This document shows positions 1 to 60,571 of a stretch of 64,000 nucleotides of DNA, piece by piece. The stretch is from the NCBI GenBank assembly GCA_964016885.1, contig OZ024742.1, positions 326,616,001 to 326,680,000 on the forward strand, given 5' to 3'. Source of the stretch: Eledone cirrhosa. Taxonomy: Eukaryota. A program made the translations under genes and the position numbers. The notes under the pieces are model-generated. The model was given only the letters and a program-made list of their open reading frames with translations. It was not told where the DNA came from and ran no database searches. Each line of letters begins with the position of its first letter. Within the stretch, counting starts at the first letter, position 1.

Positions 1-172
1 CATACATAAATATATATTCATATATATATATTCATATATATATATATACATATATATATATACCTATATATCTATATATACATACATAAATATATATACA
101 TATATATATATACATATATATATACATATATATATATATATACATATATACATATATATATATTTACATATA

Positions 173-759
173 TGGTGGCTGCCAACTCGTTTTCGAGTAC
201 GGCCACTACTTTATATCCATGTAGGAGAACCTCTACCGATGCGCTGAACAAGTGTGACTTTTTAGTCCAGCCAGCGTCTTAAAAACTCTGGTACAAACAC
301 TACACTTGTGACAATTATTGACACATAGTGCTGGGCCCATGGTACCATGTGACGACAAGTGCAGAGAGATCTCCAGATATAAAGCAATGCCTGTGCCGTG
401 AAGCTTTTATAGTGAGCAAAGGCACTGCACAAAGCCAGTCCCACTCTCTTAACCAAGATGATATTTACCAAAAAGAAGAACAAGTCAACATCATTGGATA
501 CCATCAGGGTTGCAGGTGTTATATCAGAATTTTCCTTCTCCTAGAATTCTGCCTTGACAAAGGCTAAGGGGTCATCTCTCCCGGTGATTTTGGATGGCCA
601 TTGACTCTTAAGAGCTCCTTTGCCCTTTGACAGGTTTTGTTTTAAGTCCTGCAGGATGTCCAAAGTCACCCTCCTCACCAAGAAACCTTGGTGGGGTTGC
701 CAGTTTAGTCGCCAACGACACGACCATGAGACAGGTTGTACTGGGATACATGTTACCAG
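173..759 (-). mobile_element. Non-autonomous RTE-LINE-derived element (~590 bp, family R), copy 1
   Basis: Near-identical to 7449-8062, 8094-8702, 10168-10577 and 37129-37737. The minus strand ends in ...CTCGAAAACGAGTTGGCAGCCACCA plus microsatellite. It retains a C2H2 remnant resembling the RTE C-terminus at 9439. Confidence 0.75.
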
Positions 760-7380: not shown

Positions 7381-7448
7381 TACATACATACATACATACA
7401 TACATACATACATACATACATACATACATACATACATACATACATACA

Positions 7449-8702
7449 TGGTGGCTGCCAACTCGTTTTCTAATACGGCCACTACTTTATATCCATGTAG
7501 GAGAACCCCTACCGATGCGCTGAACGAGTGTGACATTTTAGTCCAGCCAGCGACTTGAAAACTCTGGTACAAACACTACACTTGTGACAATTATTGACAC
7601 ATAGTGCTGGGCCCATGGTACCATGTGACGACAAGTGCAGAGAGATCAGAGATTTCCAGATATAAATCAATGCCTGTGCCGTGAAGCTTTTATAGTAAGC
7701 AAAGGCACTGCACAAAGCCAGTCCCACTCTCTTAACCAAGATGATATTTACCAAAAAGAAGAACGAGTCAACATCATTGGATAGCATCAGGGTTGCAGGT
7801 GTTATATCAGAGTTTTCCTTCTCCTAGAATTCTGCCTTGACAAAGGCTCAGGGGTCATCTCTCCCAGTGATTTGGGATGGCCATTGACTCTTAAGAGCTC
7901 CTTTGCCCTTTGACAGGTTTTGTTTTAAGTCCTGCAGGATGTCCAAAGTCACCCTCCTCACCAAGAAACCTTGGTGGGGTTGCCAGTTTAGTCGCCAACG
8001 ACCCGACCATGAGAAAGGTTGTACTGGGATACATGTTACCAGTAGCACCAACTGGTGACCTAACATACATATATACATACATACATACATATATGGTGGC
8101 TGCCGACTCGTTTTCGAGTACGGCCACTACTTTATATCCATGTAGGAAAACGCCTACCGATGCGCTGAACGGATGTGACTTTTTAGTCCAGCCAGCATAT
8201 TGAAAACTCTGATACAAACACTACACTTGTGACAATTATTGACACATAGTGCTGGGCCCATGGTACCATGTGAGGACAAGTGCAAAGAGATCTCCAGATA
8301 TAAAGCAATGCCTGTGCCGTGAAGCTTTTATAGTGAGCAAAGGCACTGCACAAAGCCAGTCCCACTCTCTTAACCAAGATGATATTTACCAAAAAGAAGA
8401 ACAAGTCAACATCATTGGATACCATCAGGATTGCAGGTGTTATATCAGAGTTTTCCTTCTCCTAGAATTCTGCCTTGACAAAGGCTAAGGGGTCATCTCT
8501 CCCGGTGATTTTGGATGGCCATTGACTCTTAAGAGCTCCTTTGCCCTTTGACAGGTTTTGTTTTTAGTCCTGCGGGATGTCCAAATTCACCCTCCTCACC
8601 AAGAAACCTTGGTGGGGTTGCCACTTTAGTCGCCAACGTCCCGACCATGAGACAGGTTGTACTGGGATACGTGTTACCAGTAGCCCCAACTGGTGACCTG
8701 AC
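7449..8702 (-). mobile_element. Two tandem family R copies (7449-8062, 8094-8702)
   Basis: Direct repeats separated by a short (TACA)-like tract. Confidence 0.8.
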
Positions 8703-8714
8703 ACAATACATATA

Positions 8715-10100: not shown

Positions 10101-10167
10101 ACATACATACATACATACATACATACATACATACATACATACATACATACATACATACATACATACA

Positions 10168-10577
10168 TGGTGGCTGCCAACTCGTTTTCGAGTACGGCCA
10201 CTACTTTATATCCATGTAGGAGAACCCCTACCGATGCGCTGAACGAGTGTGACTTTTTAGTCCAGCCAGCGACTTGAAAACTCTGGTACAAACACTACAC
10301 TTGTGACAATTATTGACACATAGTGCTTTACCTTTGGTACCATGTGACGACAAGTGCAGAGAGATCTCCAGATACAAAGCAATGCCTGTGCCGTGAAGCT
10401 TTTATAGTGAGCAAAGGCACTGCACAAAGCCAGTCCCACTCTCTTAACCAAGATGATATTTACCAAAAAGAAGAACAAGTCAACATCATTGGATACCATC
10501 AGGGTTGCAGGTGTTATATCAGAGTTTTCCTTCTCCTAGAATTCTGCCTTGACAAAGGCTAAGGGGTCATCTCTCCC
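10168..10577 (-). mobile_element. 5'-truncated family R copy
   Basis: Matches 173-582. Confidence 0.8.
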
Positions 10578-24174: not shown

Positions 24175-26767
24175 AATGGAAAATTTGAACAGGAACAAAA
24201 CAGAGAGGCAGTACAACGAATGTTTATTAATTTCACGCTCTTGAGAGTGGGGTGGTGGTGGGAACGACGTTTCGGGCATAAGCCCTTCTTCAGGTGAAAA
24301 GTGTGTGGGAAGAGAGTTCAAAGGGTGTGTAGGGGAATGGTGGAGAGACATATAGCAAAAAGGGTGTGGGAGGAAACGGTGCTAATGAAAATAAAAATAA
24401 AAACATGATCAAAATAAAATTAAAATGGGGTAAAACAGGTGGTGGAAGGGTGTGGGGCGTGTAGGGCTGGTGGCGGGTGGAGTGGGGAGAGGGAGACGGG
24501 GTGTCCGAGCGGGGAGGGCTGAAGGTGGTGTGTGTGTGTGTGTGTGTGTATGTGAAAGCAAGGGTTGGGGGAAGAACGGGGTTGCATGTTCAGGAAGAGG
24601 TGTGTGTGGGGTGTAGGTCGGAGTGTGTGTGCGTGTGTGGATAGAGGGGTGGGGGGAGAGGAATCCGGAGGCTGAATGTGTAAATATGTGGCGGAACGCA
24701 CGTGTGTGTGGTGTTTAAGCGTGTTGTGGGTGTAGGTGGCGTGTGGGAAAAAACATTTTTTGGGGGTGTGGGTGAGTCATGAAGGTGATTCCGTAAGAAG
24801 ATGTGGAAAGGTTGGTAAAATCCTAGGATGGTAGTTGATTCCACGGTCAAGGTTCACATACGAGGAATCCGTGAAGAGATGGTTGGAAGAGGGGAGATGT
24901 GGGGTGCGCGCGCAACAGGAAGTGGTCAAGGCAGTAGGAGTGCTGTGTGTCTATGTGTGCGGGGAGGTGGTCAGAAAGCATAGCAGCAGTAGGGTGGAAT
25001 GGTAAAGGGGCGAGGATGGGTAGGTTTGAAAGTAGGAGTAGGGAGGGGGTGTGGGTGGAGCGGGGAGAGAAGGGGGTGGGGGTCGATGGAGGGAGTGTGG
25101 TGTACTGGTGTGTGTGTAGTTTGATGAAGGGGGTGTTAGTGGGTGTTAGTATACAGGAGGTGGAGAAAGGGTTGAATGCGGGTGGGGGTCAGTGGTGGTA
25201 GAGTGTGTAGAGTTGGTGATCTAAGAGGGTGTGTGTGTACGTGTGCGTGGAGTTGGGGGGTGTTAGTGATGTTAGTTGCGTGTAGGGTGGGTGGTGTAAG
25301 TGGGTCCGTGTGTTCGTGTGCTTGGGGTCAGGGGGTGTTAGTGATGTTAGTTGCGGGGTGGTGGGGTGGATGTGTGGGGGTGAGGGTTAGTGGTGGTAGT
25401 AGGGTGTGTGTTTAGTGTGAGCGCGTGTATGCATGTGCCGGTGGGTGGGTGTGTGTGATAAGGAGGGGGGAGAAGAAGGGTTAGTATGTTAGTTGGGGAA
25501 GGGTGGTCGGATGAGGGGTGGAGTGAAGGTGTTAGTATTGTTAGTTGTGGGGTGGGCGGTGAAAAGGAGGGGTGTGTTAGTGGTGTTAGTGGGGGATATA
25601 TGTGGGGGAGGGGGGCGGTCGAAGGCTAAAGGAATAAGGGTGGGGAGTTCAGGCCGGGGGGAGTGTGGGTCTGTAAGATGAAGATGGTTCTTTGTTCAAC
25701 TCTGAGGAGATTGGCGGGTGTTCCGTGGCATTGGAGTAGGCCACAGACTGTGAGATGGCGTGCGGAATGTCCAGGGGCACCAAAGTGGCGGGAGATGGGG
25801 GAACTACCACCGAGACGAATATCCCGGAGGTGCTCAGTGAATCTGTCCGCCAGGCGACATCCCGTCTGTCCGACGTAAGTCGCGCGAAGTCCGTAGACTA
25901 GGTTGGAGGAGGTGCAGCGGAAGGCATGCCGGACAGAGAGAGAGTTGCCGTTGGGACCCTGGAAGGTGGTGGTGGTGGTGATGTGGGGACAGGTGTTGCA
26001 GCGGGGCCTAGAACAGGGAAAGGAACCGGGGGAGAGAGTGTGGGTTGGGGGTAGGGAGCTGTGGACGAGGAGGGTGCGGAGATTGCGTGCGCGTTTGAAG
26101 GAGGGGGGTGGGGGTGGGAAGATGTGGGAGGTGGAGGGGTCGGACTGGAGGCGTCGGAAGAGGCGGCGGATGGTGTGGTGGGGGGGTAAGGTGGATGGGT
26201 GGTAGGTGATGAGGAAGGGGAGACGGTGGGTGGGTGTGCGGTGGGGTGAGGGTGGTGGAGCGGTGGACAGCACGGGCGCGGGTGAGAGCGGTGTGGACGA
26301 GAGGGGGGGGGGGGGGGGGGGGTAACATCTACGGATGAAATGGCTGACTAGGGAAAGGGCCTGGGACTCGAAGTCAGCATCTCGGCTACAGAGGCGGCGG
26401 ATCCTGAGGAGTTGGGAGTAGGGAATAGAGTGTTTAGTGTGTGTTGGGTGGGAAGAGGTGAAGTCGAGGTAAGAGTGGGAGTCGGTGGGTTTGAAGAAGG
26501 CGGAGGTGACGAGGGAGTGGTGGGAGGGGTCGAAGGCGACGGTGGTGTCTAAGAAGTGGACGTGGGTGGTGGAGATAGAGGTGGTGAAATGGAGGGAGGG
26601 GTGGAAGGAGCAGAAGAAGGAGAGAAAGGAGTCGAGCTGTTCTCGGGTGAGGGTCGTGGCTCCGATACAGTCGTCGATGTAACGACCGTACAGTTCGGGC
26701 GTGGGGCCGGTGTACTGGGCAAAGATTTGGGCCTCAACATGGCCAACAAAAAGGTTGGCATAGTTCG
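24175..26767 (-). mobile_element. 5'-truncated Penelope-like element (Neptune-type)
   Basis: RT motifs YANLFVG..YGRYIDDC..FLD..KPTDSHSYL..SIPYSQLLRIRRLCS (26340-26765). Linker CSRPRCNTC and GIY-YIG-like NLVY..YVGQT..RFTEH..GLN (25626-26273). Confidence 0.9.
24263..24296 (-). ncRNA. Minimal PLE-type hammerhead in the 3' region of the Neptune-like PLE
   Basis: CTGAAGA AGGGC-TTAT-GCCC GAAAC GTC. Confidence 0.75.
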
Positions 26768-26983
26768 GATGTCCTTAGAATCATTTGATAAGATATATAC
26801 TCAATTTCCTATAAAAATAATAGATAAATAAACGATAGCCATCTATTCGCGGTCAACAGCCATAGAATATTTACCCAGCATTTCAATAGCCCGTGGAAAT
26901 CGTTAAATATATCGTCAACCATACACAATTAGGTATAAAATTAAAGTTAGAAGAAAAAATGCATATACACATACCAGGATTAC

Positions 26984-36501: not shown

Positions 36502-36833
36502 CAAAATAGGAGGCTCGAGAGAAAAAGGAAAGGAAAAAAACAACGGAAAGAAGACAGTCCCATAATTGGTATCAACCTTAATACCCGAAACTGTAGAGAT
36601 TTCCACTGGTTAATTGGGGAGATGAGACTGTCCGTCTTTCCTTTGTTTTTTATTGTTTTTTTTTTACCATTGTGTTTGTCCATTGCGCTCCCTAAATTCA
36701 TATTCTAAAGACTTAGTTATGCGGGCTATTTTTGTAACTATCTTTATATATATAATTAGGCTGCTCAGTCGTTAATATGCATATGGAAAGTATATACTTT
36801 CAAACGTTCAATCGACTGACAGGAAGGTATACT

Positions 36834-36870
36834 GTGCTGATGACAGCTAATAATCTAGAAACTAGTTCAT
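36834..36870 (+). ncRNA. Minimal hammerhead-like motif
   Basis: GTG CTGATGA CAG..CTA GAAAC TA GTT CAT. Palindromic stem III AACTAGTT; weak stem II. Confidence 0.55.
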
Positions 36871-37078
36871 CGCTCCTTTGTCAGTGTTGAACAAAAGGGC
36901 AACGATGGTTGCCGAACACTGTACGGCTAATAATTCGGGCTGTTTGTTTACAAACAAACCGAGCATTATAATAAATGTTCGGTAAACCCATACGTACATA
37001 TATATATATGTGTGCATGTATGTATGTATATACATACTACTGTATGTCTGTATACATATATGTATGTACGTATACATA

Positions 37079-37128
<50 letters not shown>

Positions 37129-37131
<3 letters not shown>

Positions 37132-37737
37132 TGGCTGCCAGCTAGTTTTCGAGTACGGCCACTACTTTATATCCATGTAGGAGAACCCCTACCGATGCGC
37201 TGAACGAATGTGACTTTTTAGTCCAGCCAGCGACTTGAAAACTCTGGTACCAACACTAGACTCCTGACAATTATTGACACATAGTGCTGGGCCCATGGTA
37301 CCATGTGATGACAAGTGCAGAGAGATCTCCAGATATAAAGCAATGCCTGTGCCATGAAGCTTTTATAGTGAGCAAAGGCACTGCACAAAGCCAGTCCCAC
37401 TCTCTTAACCAAGATGATATTTACCAAAAAGAAGAACAAGTAAACATCATTGGATACCATCAGGGTTGCAGGTGTTATATCAGAGTTTTCCTTCTCCTAG
37501 AATTCTGCCTTGACAAAGGCTAAGGGGTCATCTCTCCCGGTGATTTTGGATGGTCATTGACTCTTAAGGGCTCCTTTTCCCTATGACAGGTTTTATTTTT
37601 AGTCCTGCAGGATGTCCAAAGTCACCCTCCTCACGAAGAAACCTTGGTGGGGTTGCCAGTTTAGTCGTCAACGACCCGACCATGAGACAGGTTGTACTGG
37701 GATACATGTTACCAGTAGCACCAACTGGTGACCTGAC
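37129..37737 (-). mobile_element. Family R copy
   Basis: Matches 8094-8702. Confidence 0.8.
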
Positions 37738-37783
37738 ATATATATACATATACATACATATACATATACACACATATGTATAT

Positions 37784-37834
<51 letters not shown>

Positions 37835-37886
37835 TACATATATATACATACACACATATATATATACATACATATATACAATGTAT

Positions 37887-38028
37887 GCACATGGCCCAGT
37901 GGCCAGAGCACCGGCCCCGCAATCGAAAGGCCGCGAGCCCAACTCCCAGACCGGGCGACGTGCTCCCCCCCCCCCCCCCCCCCCCCAGCAAGACACCCCA
38001 CCCCACACCGCTCCAGCCCACCCAGCTA
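37887..38028 (+). mobile_element. SINE family 2 copy with massive T>C substitution
   Basis: Aligns to 60102-60216 with about 20 T>C changes. Confidence 0.75.
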
Positions 38029-38031
38029 TAG

Positions 38032-38239
38032 TATCTGGAGATCTCTCTGCACTTGTCGTCACATGGTACCATGGGCCCAGCACTATGTGTCAATAATTGT
38101 CACAGGTGTAGTGTTTGTACCAGAGTTTTCAAGTTGTTGGCTGGACTAAAAAGTCACACTTATTCAGCCCATCGGTAGGGGTTTTCCTGCATAGATATAA
38201 AGTAGAGGCCGTACTCGAAAACGAGTTGGCAGCCACCAT
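38032..38239 (+). mobile_element. 5'-truncated family R copy in the opposite orientation
   Basis: Reverse complement of 37129-37335. Confidence 0.8.
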
Positions 38240-39339
38240 GTGTATATGTATGTATGTATATATGTGTGTATGTATATATGTATGTATGTATATATGTATG
38301 TATGTATATATGTATGTATATGTATGTATATGTATGTGTATATATATGTGTGTATATATATGTATGTATCATCCTCATTTTACGTCCACTTTTTCCCTGC
38401 TTGCGGGGGTGGGACGGGAACTGATTCTGGCTTGATTTCTACAGCTGGATGCCCTTTCTGGCACCGGCCTCATTTGCAGTGAGTGCTGGGTGCTTTTTTG
38501 CCGTGGCGCCTCCACGGCCGCTTTGCGGTGGGGTGGTGGGGACCCCAGTCCCTATCGTCTCGTTTCATATATATATATATACATATATACATACATATAA
38601 CGACCGAATGTGTGTCCACTCTATTCGATAAGCTTCGTCTCTTAATTATATATATATATATATACACATACATATGTTTGTGACTGTATGTATGTATATA
38701 TGCACACATATATCCAATGTATAGTTATGTGCGTATATAAAGGTATATATATATGTTTATACATATATAGTTAAATGGGTGTAATATTATTGAAAACTAT
38801 TGATTGCACGTAATTCAAACACGTAATACATATTTTGTCACAAGAGGACATTGCAAACAAGACCCTTTTAGTTATATTTTTGTTTTATTGGTTTTTGGAC
38901 ATATGTAAATATCCACCTTAGTAGACACACCAAAATATCAATGTAGCTACGTTTCGCAAGCTTCCGGCATTAGTTCATATTCTCGCTAATCGGGTTCATT
39001 TCTATCTAAACGCAAAGATTCATTCCTTCATTTACAACTAAAACAAGGTTGAAAATGTATTAAATGTTACCTTTTTGGGGTTTTATACGTGTGTGCACGC
39101 ACACACACAAAGGTGCACAAGCAAACACACAGACACAAACAAACGCATACACACACACAGAGACACACACACATACTCTCTCACACACACACATACACAC
39201 ATAACACACTAAAACAAACACATACACAAAGAAACACACCTATATAAATGCATACATATTTATGTCGAGCAATTTGCAGAAATACGATGTATCCGGGAAT
39301 GTGTGTATGTATGTATATATATATATATATATATATACG

Positions 39340-41621
39340 GATTAACAAATAATAGTTAAATGCAGTCCACTTAGGTGAAGTCCAGTTATGGTATTCCAGG
39401 TAGTGGATGATATAAACGCTTGGCTTGGTTTGACTCAACAAGGCATTTTCATAGTGATGCTGCGGGTATGCCGTAATTCCTATGTTGTAAACACTTGGAG
39501 TAATAATAAATCAGGAAAGAAGGTTTACATGGTTTGCTATACAAAAAAGATTTTAATCACATAGCTTACATTTGTTTCACTGAACTGGTCTGTCTAGAGA
39601 TCGCTATTCGCTTAATTTTGCGTTACTCGATCGCCAATACAGAATTATAACCAGTCAGATCTTCGGAGCATGCGAGAATGAAGAAAATACACAGGCAAGA
39701 AAAGAAAAGAAAATACAGGCTACTATATGAAGTAGTAATGGCATTCAATTAGAACAATAACAACAATTACAACAATGCTATCAATAAACTATTTAAGGAG
39801 ACCCTGACATTACTTAGGTGGGGGTATATAATGTATCTAATGTTACGGCGTGTAAAACTAGCTGTCATAAGGCAAAATGAAGCGTTGGCATGTACAAAGT
39901 ATCGTAGTGTATATCAATTTTAAATTATAAAGATAAGCTAGTTTTTACAGTCTTTCTCTTCATCTTCAACAGTATACATGAGTGGGACCACTGTCAAAGC
40001 TAAATAGTTGTTGAGTTAATACAGAGGTTAACGAATTAATATACGCATATATTTACGCACACACACACATACACACACACACACGCGCTATTTTGTGCAG
40101 CTTTTACATTCCTGTTTAGTACTCTGTTATAAGTCGGTTGTGATATATGCCCAATGGGGTTTTACTGCTGCGCGTTTGTATGCGCTTGTGGTTGTGATGT
40201 TGTGATGAGTTTGTGCTTATGTATAGGTGCAATTGATTTACTAGAGATATTTCTGTGGTTGATCTTGCGTATGTGTGATTCTATGTTAGCTGCTGTTGAG
40301 AATGAGAGTTTTATAGTAGATCTATTGAGTATTTTGTGATATCTATGCGAGATAGGGAAGTGTTTATCTATTAGTTTAAAGAATGTAGAGGGCAGTCTAG
40401 TTTTTATAGAGGAGTTGAATATTGGGTTGAACCATAGGTATTTTCTTTGTCTGTTTCTTCTATAGTTTCTTGGGTTTACGTTATTAGTGTTTTGGCCGTT
40501 TACTCCAGGTGTTACATGTCTAACCCTATGTCTAGTCAAGCTATTCCTATTATTATGTGAGCGGTTGGAGTAGTAATTACTAGGATTGTTTATGTTGTCC
40601 TTATTCACTATATACTGTAGTTTATCTTTATGGCCGGCCCTACTTAATGCTGCATTATAATAGTCAGCATGCTCGTTAAAGATTTCTAGGTTTGAGGATA
40701 AGCGGGATATTCGGAGGGATATACTACGTGCTATGGATTTAATTATGGATTTGGGGTGATTTGAGTTGTAACTAATGTAGGCAAGATTTTCATTATTTTT
40801 GTGGAAAGGTTCTATTAGTCCAGTATTTAGATTTAGAGTTACATCTAGAAAATTTACCTTCTTATGGTTTAGTTCGTAGGTAATACTTAGGCCTAGTTTT
40901 TTGAAGAATATTCTAATATTTTTCCTTAGTCTTTCCATGCTCTGGTTGTTTAGGTTCCTAGCTATAAGTAACGTGTCGTCCCTATAAATTCCTCCTTGGA
41001 GGTTACTGAATTCCTTATGTAGGTTGTGTGCTATGAATAGCCCCACGATATCTGTGATTTGCGCAGAATCATTTGATCCCATTGTTATATCGAAGCTATT
41101 TATTCTATCCTTTCTTACCCAGTAGTTATTTTCAAATTTTATGATAGTCCTTCTAGCCGCTATTATTATTTCAATTTCATCATGGGTAAGATCAGAGTTA
41201 TTTTGGGCAAATATAAGCGCCTTATCTAGGGTAGCTGGGGATATGGATGCATAATAGTCGTCTATATCAAATTGTATGAAGTTACACGTCTCCCTATTTT
41301 GTATTTTATTGAACCATTTAATTGCCTCGTTAGTGTTGCCCCATAAATTGATTTCTAGTTTACCCTTTATTTGTGTGATTACCCTATCTAGAATGTTCTT
41401 GCTAATTTTACCTATGTCTGACTTGGATGGGCATATTAATCTAATGGTGGGATTAGTTTCAAAGTTATTTTTGTGATCCTTCAGGTTAAATGTTACTTTA
41501 CCTTCTTTTTGCCATAATTACAATTAGCACGCTTATCTCTTTGCATGTATGTATATTTTTGTACGAGTGTATATTGATGTGTATGTATGTGTCTATGTAC
41601 ACATGCATGTGTATATATGTG

Positions 41622-57495: not shown

Positions 57496-59390
57496 TTGAT
57501 TATTCAAAACATCAAATTCAAGAAAAACGAATTTGTAAGCCAGGAATACCTTAAAGGCCTCAAGAATAATATAGACAATCTTGAAAAAACTGAGAAGATC
57601 CTCGTAAAATCTGACAAAACTAACAATCTATACGGAATGCAAAAGGACGAATACAATAACCTTATATTGAAAGAACTAAGGAAAAACTACAAAATAACAA
57701 CTAATGAAGATCTTGAAATGGTAAATAGAGAAGCTTCTGAAATAATTCATAAATTAGGCATCGAAAATAGGTCCGAACCCTTTATACCTAGAAGACCGAA
57801 AATTAACCTGAATGACCACAAAAAAAACTTTGAAATAGAACTACCAGTCAGACTTATAGCACCATCTAAATCAGATTTAGGCATAGTTTGTAAACATATA
57901 TTAGATAGAATTATACCGCAACTTAAAGAAATATCTAACCTAAAACTATGGAACGGTACTAACGAGGTTATAGTTCAATAACATAAAATTTAAACATAAC
58001 AAAAAATTCATTCAAATGGATATTGCAAACTACTACTCCTCTATTACTCCTAGTTTACTTAATAAAGCTCTTATCTATGCATCTAAACATACAGATTTAT
58101 CTAGCGAAGAAATGCATATCATTTTAACTGCACGGAAAACTTTAATTGAATTCAACAATCATCTCTGGACAAGAGCCGATAGAAAGAATAATTTTGATAT
58201 GACCATGGGATCATCTGACTCGGCGCAGATAACGGATCTTGTGGGGCTATTTATTAATAATACACTGCATAGAAAAATACCAGAGATGACCGGTGGTTTA
58301 TATCGTGATGATATGCTGTTTTTAATTGAAAATCATAGTAATTGTGAAATTAATAGGAAGAGAAAATCCATAATACAATTCTTCAATAGCTACAACCTTA
58401 AGTTAGAAATAGAGAATAACTATAAAATTGTTAACTTTTTAGACGTAGCATTAAACCTTAACACAGGGCTCTACTATCCATTCCAAAAAATTAATGAGAA
58501 TCTAAACTATGTAAGTTTTAACTCTAATCATCCTAGATCTATCAAGAACACTATTGTCAATTCTGTCCAACAACGGATTTCACGCATCTCCGCTAATAAA
58601 AACATTTTTGACGATAAGGCAGAATATTATAATGAAGCTTTAAATAGAGCAGGGTATATAAATAAGATTAAATACATCGACAACAGTAATAAGGCAAATC
58701 ACCCTACTATTAATTGTAATAATAATAAAAAATTTATCTTTAAACTCTAAAACTAACAGAACTAGAACTAGAAATATTATTTGGTACTCACCCCATTCTC
58801 ATTAAGCGTAAAAACACCTTTAGCAAAGCTATTCTTTAAAGCACTAGATAAATGTTTTCCTAAAGCGCAGAGATACCACTCAATCTTTAACAGACATACT
58901 ATAAAACTATCCTACTCTACTACTATGAACATAGCACAAAATATAAGTAGAATTAATAATAGAAATTTAAACCCTAACCAAAATAACCAAAATAGCAGTA
59001 ATATCTCTAGCAATATCCAACATAATAGTACCGTTCCGAACAACAACTCCGCAAAATGTAACTGTAAAATTAAATCAAACTGTCCTTTACAAAATAAGTG
59101 TTTAGATAAAAACGTGGTCTATAAATGCACAGTTAAAACTAGTGATAATATATTTAACTATGTCGGTACAACTTCTACAGAATTTAAAAGTCACTGGAAT
59201 AACCACAATTGTTCTTTCCGAAGATTTAATTTAAAAATCTTCAACTTCTCTTTCAAACCTGATATGGAACTTAAAATGCAAGAATATGGACTATTCATTA
59301 GCTTGGGAAACAGTTTCAAAAGCACCCGCGTACCGAAACACAGCTTTATCTAGATTCTGCAAATTGTGTATTGAAGAAATTTATTTAACA
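57496..59390 (+). pseudogene. PLE RT plus GIY-YIG endonuclease, frameshifted
   Basis: KSDKTNN, RLIAPSKSDLG, DIANYYSSI, MGSSDSAQ, GGLYRDD, FLDV; linker CNCKIKSNC (CxCx5C); NVVY..YVGTT..NNH. Confidence 0.9.
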
Positions 59391-60571
59391 CCGCCAGAAT
59401 TCAACATTCAGAACTATATATAGCTTATAATTATACTTATAATATTCCTACTAATTTCCATAACAATCTCATCCACTTGGTTTTAATATATTGATATCTC
59501 TAAATCATAATATCTGTAACATTTGTTGTAATTCCACTTCTTAAAGTTTCATAAAATATATACGTATATAATTCTATTTTTTTTTATTTTAATTTTAATA
59601 ATGTTTATTTCTTTAATTTTTATTTCTTTAAAAATTACTTATCTCTTATAATTTTTTTTTTTTTTTATTTTCTCAAATTTTTCAATATTTTTTCAATACT
59701 TTCTCAATATTTTTTCAATATTTTTTCAATAGATTTATAACCACTAACTGATTCTGGCTAAATGTATCTTCAACATCTATACTTATTTTGACTAAATAGT
59801 CTCACACTAACGAATAAATAAATTAAACCGGAGTTTTTTCTGTATCTTCCCATCTTCAATCATATAAATATAAATATTCTTCTTAACTCAGTTAATTTAA
59901 TTTAATTTAACTTAATATTTATTTACATAAAATACAAAACCAATATCCCTCATAACACATTAGAACAATTATCTATAACATGATATTTATTTATTTATTT
60001 ATTTATTTATTTATCTACTTATAACAGAAGAAAAATATATTATAAACAAATTTTAAACAACTAATAATCGTAAATACACGTAATATTAAGATATATACTT
60101 GGCGTGTGGTTGAGTGGTTAGGGAATTGGATTCGCAATCGTAAGGTTGTGAGTTCAATTCCTGGACCAGGCGATGCGTTATGTCCTTGAGCAAGACACTT
60201 TATTTCACGTTGCTCCTTCTACCTGGAGTTGCGACCGATAGATAGTATTAGCAATTGGAAAGACCAACGGAAACATTGTTCCCTCGGTCCGATTTGACGA
60301 AAGTCGATCGTTCCTTTATACTTAGAATATATTTTTATTCATCTTCCCTTTTTTCTTTCTTCTCTCTCTCTTGCACTATTTTATCCTTCTGCTCTTCTCT
60401 CTCTCTATATAGTCGTTTAAATAAACGGTTGTTTTTCAATTATTTACATATTCATTTGCATATTCACCTATAAGTTTGAAAAATCCCTAATATATTTCCA
60501 CTATCCAGAGAATATCCAACTGATAAGGTATGATTTTCATGGCTATGTCTCTATTTGTAAAACAAACTTTG

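What the first reader, a model, noticed from the sequence alone, without database searches (positions are those of the whole stretch)
37887..38028. SINE copy with strand-specific T>C hypermutation: possible genomic fossil of an ADAR hyper-edited RNA
Seen: against the sister copy at 60102-60216 there are about 20 T>C changes (AGGTTGTGAGTTCAATTCC to AGGCCGCGAGCCCAACTCC; CACTTTATTTCAC to CACCCCACCCCAC). Surviving Ts are mostly in TC or TG contexts, i.e. As with a 5' G or C on the minus strand. Known: ADAR disfavours a 5' G neighbour, and coleoid cephalopods edit extensively. Inference: an A-to-I edited antisense SINE RNA was reverse transcribed, perhaps as the inverted 5' part of the adjoining family R retrocopy at 38032-38239.
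Basis: partly seen in the sequence, partly recalled or inferred. Interest (0 to 1): 0.8.

Follow-up and report, generated by a model that had tools for sequence, protein, structure and literature searches.

The report
RNA-edited SINE written into genome
A short jumping-gene copy, split by an inversion, has about two thirds of the adenosines on one strand changed to guanosine, and eight other loci in the genome show the same one-strand change, most likely because the RNA-editing enzyme ADAR altered the RNA before it was copied back into chromosomes, which would make normally transient RNA edits heritable.

Summary
Confirmed, and larger than reported. Against its own young SINE subfamily, 37887-38031 has 34 T>C at 43 T positions and 3 other changes; ordinary sisters have 18 of 1468. 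The missing 3' half lies inverted at 38376-38566 with 17 more, so the mutated strand flips with the inversion. On the antisense strand these are A>G with 5' G disfavoured (7/17 against 36/51). The adjoining R copies are unedited. Eight other loci carry edited copies. Four are inverted pairs with A>G on both arms of one strand, and in one the changes stop where pairing stops. The closest copy was edited independently. Best reading: ADAR hyper-edited a double-stranded SINE RNA, which was reverse transcribed into a (TA)n tract, probably with twin priming. Not shown: read support (inconclusive), this copy's partner arm, its parent locus, target duplications. The scan noted the same phenomenon before on other DNA, in this genome and others. 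I found no paper on germline non-LTR cases; ADAR-hypermutated proviruses are the precedent.

The parts
36998..37127 (.). (TA)n/(TATG)n tract: tail of the left R copy and likely target or priming site; boundary not definable
   Evidence: the sequence to its left is the end of an unrelated young repeat
37128..37740 (-). Full-length R element (613 bp; fixed 3' end, simple-repeat tail, variable 5' ends), unedited; either the 3' end of the copied RNA or an older neighbour
   Evidence: 17 substitutions (2.8%), 1 A>G in element sense; 25 of 35 R hits start at the tail end
37741..37886 (.). (TA)n/(CATA)n spacer between R and the SINE head; alternative priming site
37887..38031 (+). SINE 5' half (reference positions 5-136), hypermutated T>C, which is A>G on the minus strand
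   Evidence: 34 T>C of 43 T, 3 other; 28 of 35 outside the C run
37965..37986 (+). C22 run grown from an edited T-rich stretch; a run of like length stands at the same place in the independently edited copy L032
38032..38239 (+). 3'-terminal 208 bp of an R copy, inverted relative to the left R, joined by its truncated end to SINE position 136; unedited
   Evidence: (10 substitutions, 2 A>G)
38240..38375 (.). R tail (TGTA)n running into the SINE's ATG-type tail
38376..38566 (-). SINE 3' half (reference positions 136-325), inverted; 17 T>C in SINE sense, seen as A>G on the + strand
38567..38599 (.). (TA)n flank joined to the inversion breakpoint

Best explanation
This SINE copy carries one-strand A-to-G hypermutation on both of its halves, most likely because ADAR hyper-edited a double-stranded RNA that held the SINE in antisense and that RNA was then reverse transcribed into germline DNA. 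Shown: the spectrum, the strand, the 5' context bias, the flip of polarity across the inversion, unedited neighbours, and four sister loci edited on both arms of an inverted pair. Inferred steps: (1) a transcript read through an R element's tail into an antisense SINE; (2) the SINE paired over its whole length with a sense SINE, in the same RNA beyond the part that was copied or as a separate RNA; (3) ADAR converted about 65% of its adenosines and left the unpaired R alone; (4) target-primed reverse transcription began at a (TA)n/(TATG)n tract and copied the RNA up to SINE position 136; (5) a second, internal priming (twin priming) copied the rest of the SINE and 208 bases of R in the opposite direction; (6) slippage on the new homopolymer gave the C22 run. 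Step 5 is the weakest (about 0.6 on its own).
For: Spectrum and background. 5' context over six antisense-edited loci: U/A 102/180 against C/G 60/242, p 3e-11; G 17/100. Five sense-edited arms: U 23/37, A 37/82, C 18/93, G 6/65 (three of these arms were found with patterns that force edits after U or A). Upstream G depletion is the shared hyper-editing motif, and a weak downstream G preference is reported for invertebrates including octopus (PMC5625713, passages). Inverted pairs with A>G on one strand: L036 22 + 28-33, L034 12 + 15, L126 6 + 7, L163 10 + 7. In L126 the long arm has 7 A>G within the paired positions 74-149 and none in 150-325. R beside the edited SINE is unedited. Window and L032 share 32 edited sites against 31.3 expected from context and half (p=0.45), with 13 and 11 private. 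Inversion: the halves meet at position 136 with at most one base of overlap, the flank joins the internal breakpoint and R's truncated end joins the other half, the order drawn for twin priming (PMC2837659, passages). R copies have a fixed tail end and variable far ends. R lies within 1.5 kb of 5 of the first 6 edited loci against 9 of 82 ordinary ones.
Against: No read support: the edited 5' half was skipped as a repeat in both layings, and at 98% likeness no contig of two runs covered the private variants of the right R piece (the tool says a hole proves nothing). No partner arm beside this copy, nor within 1.5 kb of L032, L033, L035, L128. No unedited parent found. No target-site duplication can be read in the microsatellites, and microhomology at the junctions is 0-1 base. 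Of 27 loci where a SINE tail meets an R tail, picked nearly blind to editing, none is skewed, so that arrangement alone does not cause editing. L036, L126, L128 and L163 have no R within 1.5 kb, so R is not the only vehicle. 80% editing in the 5' half is higher than the roughly half that I recall for long duplexes in vitro (recalled, no call). In L034 the full arm has 10 of its 12 changes outside the part matched by the surviving partial arm, which needs the partner to have been longer in the RNA. ADAR activity in this animal's germline was not tested; the organism's identity was not tested.
Confidence: 0.82

Rival explanations
1. The deaminase acted on DNA, not on double-stranded RNA: the first-strand cDNA of an ordinary sense SINE RNA, or the template strand in an R-loop, was deaminated inside an RNA:DNA hybrid, and the inversion came later.
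For: The edited strand here is the one that would be cDNA for a sense SINE RNA; the changes cover the SINE and nothing else; no partner arm is present. ADARs can deaminate DNA in hybrids in vitro (PMC5389660, abstract).
Against: Four loci have both arms of an inverted pair changed on one strand, one arm sense and one antisense; in L126 the changes end with the stem; L128 is edited in sense. A hybrid would expose the whole cDNA, including R, which is unedited.
Confidence: 0.07
2. Same ADAR-edited RNA, but inserted colinearly or copied onto its own locus by cDNA gene conversion, with 38032-38566 inverted later at the DNA level. This changes step 5 only and overlaps with the best explanation.
For: No target duplication and almost no microhomology to prove twin priming; microsatellite-rich DNA rearranges readily (general knowledge); L032 has the same R-SINE-R order uninverted.
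Against: One breakpoint would have to fall exactly on the truncated end of R: beyond the inversion there is (TA)n and an unrelated repeat, not the rest of R.
Confidence: 0.25
3. A base-calling, polishing or assembly artefact near the poly-C run.
For: No reads confirm the letters; homopolymer lengths are unreliable in assemblies (general knowledge); clustered sequencing errors have entered reference genomes before, though of G-to-A type (PMC2873906, passages).
Against: The change follows the SINE across an inversion and switches strand with it, spares R 1 base away, carries ADAR-like context, and recurs at eight other loci on six other contigs and the same one, six of seven such arms without any long C run.
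Confidence: 0.05
4. A C-rich SINE subfamily, or descendants of one edited ancestor, rather than separate editing events.
For: The window copy and L032 are 92% alike over 77 bases, share a C run of like length at the same place and the same R-SINE-R order; two other pairs share more edits than the stratified null (L033-L036 p=0.003, L033-L034 p=0.011, 2 of 15 pairs).
Against: Overlap with L032 equals the context expectation, each has many private changes, and they differ at a subfamily position; only 1 of 40 scored hits exceeds 90% besides the locus itself; two degenerate patterns found no high-copy family.
Confidence: 0.05

Closest known systems
ADAR-linked A-to-G hyperediting in avian retroviruses RAV-1 and avian leukosis virus, and in HTLV-2/STLV-3 in culture (as reviewed in PMC8586724, passages; the original papers were not read)
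   Same: Clustered one-strand A-to-G changes attributed to ADAR and preserved by reverse transcription.
   Different: Here the substrate is a host non-LTR repeat, the product sits in a reference assembly at several chromosomal loci and is probably inherited, and both arms of the duplex are sometimes preserved.
APOBEC 'DNA-edited' LTR retrotransposons (PMC4866542, passages; PMC2873906, passages)
   Same: Deaminase hypermutation fixed in genomic retroelement copies, recognised by strand and context.
   Different: Those are G-to-A on the sense strand, made on cDNA; that screen kept G-to-A and not A-to-G alignments, covered LTR elements, and found its 19 invertebrates clean.
Hyper-edited SINE transcripts, with octopus as an extreme case (PMC5625713, passages; PMC9068888, passages)
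   Same: Same substrate (inverted SINE pairs), same upstream G depletion, editing of repeats outside the nervous system.
   Different: Those edits are seen in RNA against an unedited genome; here they are in the genome sequence.
Twin-primed, 5'-inverted L1 insertions (PMC2837659, passages)
   Same: Two oppositely oriented pieces of one RNA, flank joined to an internal site.
   Different: No readable target duplication, almost no microhomology, no L1 involved; the enzyme that moves R is unknown.

Membership tests
ADAR hyper-editing cluster | Dense A-to-G changes of one type on one strand | tested here: met
   45 of 70 sites outside the C run, 3 other changes in 300 positions
ADAR hyper-editing cluster | Depletion of G immediately 5' of edited A | tested here: met
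   window 7/17 against 36/51, p=0.04; six loci 17/100 against 145/322, p=3e-7; sense arms 6/65
ADAR hyper-editing cluster | Edits limited to sequence that can be double-stranded | tested here: met
   R unedited; L126 edits end with the stem. L034 fits only if its partner was longer in the RNA
ADAR hyper-editing cluster | A complementary partner for this very copy | tested here: inconclusive
   none beside it; present at 4 of the 9 edited loci
ADAR hyper-editing cluster | Dependence on the ADAR enzyme | not testable with these tools
   needs knock-down or in vitro editing
Twin-primed retrotransposon insertion | Two inverted pieces of one RNA, flank joined to the internal site, truncated end joined to the first cDNA | tested here: met
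Twin-primed retrotransposon insertion | Target-site duplications | tested here: inconclusive
   both ends lie in (TA)n tracts
Twin-primed retrotransposon insertion | Microhomology at the internal priming site | tested here: not met
   0-1 base; filed therefore as 'works like', not as a proven member
tRNA-derived SINE | Short, high-copy, A and B box-like head, simple-repeat tail | tested here: met
   325 nt, ATG-type tail, box-like motifs in the majority sequence (box consensus recalled); 1855 first-look candidates. ARAGORN calls no tRNA. Family name not established
APOBEC DNA-edited retroelement | G-to-A on the sense strand | tested here: not met
   2 G>A in both halves together

The most novel reading that the evidence does not exclude
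In this animal's germline, microsatellite-targeting retroelements repeatedly copy ADAR-saturated double-stranded SINE RNA back into chromosomes. The copies edited end to end without a partner arm record antisense read-through RNA paired in trans with free SINE RNA, and the edited T runs seed new poly-C/G microsatellites, so RNA editing acts as a heritable mutagen that destroys SINE promoter boxes and creates new repeats.
Probability: 0.3. Interest if true: 0.85.

Novelty: new variant of a known kind. Interest (0 to 1): 0.7.

Why it matters
A-to-I edits are taken to be transient. These copies would be single-molecule records of ADAR acting on retroelement RNA in the germline. They make testable the proposed but unexplored role of cephalopod editing as a defence against transposons (PMC9068888, passages): how often mobilised RNA is edited, how fully, and whether edited copies are dead. 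The edits also mark the RNA strand, so they show how inverted and fold-back insertions were built. Published genome screens for deaminase scars were set to G-to-A and would not have kept these (PMC4866542). The effect on the genome is small: nine loci found among at least about 1,900 candidates of this subfamily.

Tried and rejected
Reads: 24 runs listed; six were laid in two calls (X1-X4; X1, X3, X5, X6), all as contigs. The edited 5' half was skipped as a repeat both times and the 3' half was swamped by ordinary copies, so nothing follows. Rfam: only microsatellite noise below gathering scores. ARAGORN: no tRNA. Parent locus: L083 looked promising (shared R variant, five-A run) but has its own changes and 27 loci share that arrangement; L187-L189 share some R variants but hold no copy of this subfamily. 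Empty site: the two flanks belong to different repeats; their co-occurrence in L169 is coincidence. Partner LINE of R: the endonuclease-bearing LINE fragment near L035 does not end in R's 3' end; not found. Pattern hits dropped as not edited: of 23, 17 are a tandem satellite on C20, L107 an older SINE and L108 a microsatellite, and 4 were edited loci already held; of 3, L127 had only the forced sites; of 3, L162 had 4 changes; of 2, L164 had 4. L037 (2 T>C) was dropped's top hits. One C>T-skewed copy (L085, 6 of 9) turned up among 180 distinct SINE hits; I searched for no other substitution type, so the excess of A>G/T>C among held loci is ascertained and no test. A 3' G preference is absent on antisense arms (33/89) and present on sense arms (46/92, partly forced by the patterns). 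Literature: ten searches; some searches were aimed at genomic A-to-G edited retrocopies and listed none by title or abstract start. An endogenous MMTV half with A>G excess lacks ADAR context by its authors' account (PMC12548423, passages). The library lacks most subscription papers and I opened no supplements; supplementary note S4 of PMC4866542 on invertebrate mismatch types could bear on novelty.

Full report
Observation. The window lies on contig C3 of a 3.0-Gb animal genome. The stretch 37887-38031 is the 5' half of a 325-nt SINE of a young subfamily. The reference is the majority of 16 ordinary copies chosen from the 29 other loci. Against it the stretch has 34 T>C at 43 T positions and three other changes. 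Nineteen ordinary copies have 18 T>C at 1468 positions and 1.8% other changes; this copy has 3 other changes in 300 positions. It is therefore young and hypermutated in one direction only.

Anatomy. The SINE is split at position 136. Its 3' half lies at 38376-38566 on the minus strand with 17 T>C and 2 other changes. Between the halves lie the last 208 bases of an R element and its tail, inverted relative to the full R at 37128-37740. Undoing the inversion of 38032-38566 gives R, microsatellite, whole SINE, microsatellite, R tail, the order that L032 shows uninverted. On the + strand the 5' half reads T>C and the 3' half A>G, so the changes predate the inversion. R is 613 bp; 25 of 35 hits start at its tail end while the far ends vary, the mark of target-primed copying, and that fixes its sense as the minus strand here. 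In that RNA the SINE is antisense and every change is A-to-G. Both R copies are unedited (1 of 17 and 2 of 10 substitutions are A>G). The halves meet with at most one base of overlap; the (TA)n flank joins the internal breakpoint and R's truncated end joins the other half. That is the twin-priming order (PMC2837659, passages), but target duplications cannot be read and microhomology is 0-1 base.

Context. On the edited strand the 5' neighbour matters: A 17/18, U 7/11, C 12/22, G 7/17 in the window; U/A 102/180 against C/G 60/242 over six loci. Upstream G depletion is the common hyper-editing motif, and octopus is among the species with the weakest downstream G preference (PMC5625713, passages).

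Other loci. One DNA search and four patterns gave eight further edited loci: L032 (50 T>C), L033 (27), L034, L035 (15), L036, L126, L128 (27 A>G in sense) and L163. One search found none. Four are inverted pairs with A>G on both arms of one strand: L036 (22 and 28-33), L034 (12 and 15), L126 (6 and 7), L163 (10 and 7). In L126 the long arm has seven A>G inside the paired part and none in the 176 unpaired bases; the fold-back is predicted as one long stem. Sense arms show 5' U 23/37, A 37/82, C 18/93, G 6/65, with some bias from the patterns. These pairs are the strongest evidence: neither a sequencing fault nor deamination of a cDNA strand gives sense and antisense arms changed on the same strand and only where they pair.

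Independence. The window copy and L032 share 32 edited sites, as expected from context and half (31.3, p=0.45), with 13 and 11 private; neither can be the other's parent. Both nonetheless carry a C run of about 22 at the same place, which I read as convergent slippage on a fully edited T run; smaller expansions occur at edited A runs in L034 and L036. A lost common ancestor is not excluded, and 2 of 15 other pairs share more than the null.

Against, or open. Reads did not decide. This copy has no partner arm and no parent was found. R is enriched near edited copies (5 of the first 6 against 9 of 82), but four edited loci have no R nearby, and 0 of 27 SINE-tail/R-tail loci are edited, so R is one vehicle and not the cause. 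In L036 and L126 the RNA ends in the SINE's own tail. Whether the left R was part of the RNA is undecided.

Comparison. It works like ADAR-hypermutated proviruses (PMC8586724, passages) and parallels APOBEC-edited LTR elements, whose screen kept G-to-A only (PMC4866542, passages). As an ADAR cluster it meets spectrum, context and confinement; enzyme dependence is untested. As a twin-primed insertion it meets the order but not the microhomology test. Five searches aimed at genomic A-to-G edited non-LTR copies listed no such paper. Earlier notes of this scan report the same phenomenon in Penelope, CR1, L1 and SINE-hairpin copies: 78 notes fit in this genome and 13 in at least 7 genomes. I saw them after forming my reading and did not check their loci.

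Verdict. Real as far as the assembly goes; most likely a heritable record of ADAR editing of SINE double-stranded RNA (0.82). New variant of a known kind; interest 0.7.

Noticed in passing
window 25629-26774 (-): 382-residue stop-free frame with a reverse-transcriptase-like YIDD motif and a proline-rich end that includes the G20 run at 26303-26322; Penelope-like by my recall.
   Followed up: no
window 40165-41517 (-) and 57974-58747 (+): Stop-free frames of 451 and 258 residues that look like retroelement polymerase pieces; not scanned.
   Followed up: no
window 172-759, 7448-8067, 8093-8703, 10167-10577: Four more R copies, two in tandem; L130/L131 hold a long tandem array of R. Truncation near R position 411-413 recurs in 7 of 35 hits, perhaps a shorter subfamily. 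Its mobilising enzyme is unknown.
   Followed up: partly
L109-L125 (G000:C20 about 11.10 Mb and 11.78 Mb): 45-bp tandem satellite built from SINE positions 81-127.
   Followed up: partly
L037, L040, L042, L057, L059: Many copies of this SINE have internal tandem repeats of positions about 172-229.
   Followed up: no
L129 (around L035:1-708, minus strand): 3' fragment of a LINE with a zinc-binding motif (weak zf-RVT match, E 0.005, below cut-off) and a restriction-like endonuclease look, inserted at a (CATA)n tract.
   Followed up: partly
window about 36755-37085: Young high-copy repeat (98-99% to 39 other scored copies) ending in (TA)n, into which R and other elements often insert.
   Followed up: partly
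L126, L163: Direct fold-back SINE insertions with almost no loop; the edits show the hairpin existed already in the RNA.
   Followed up: partly
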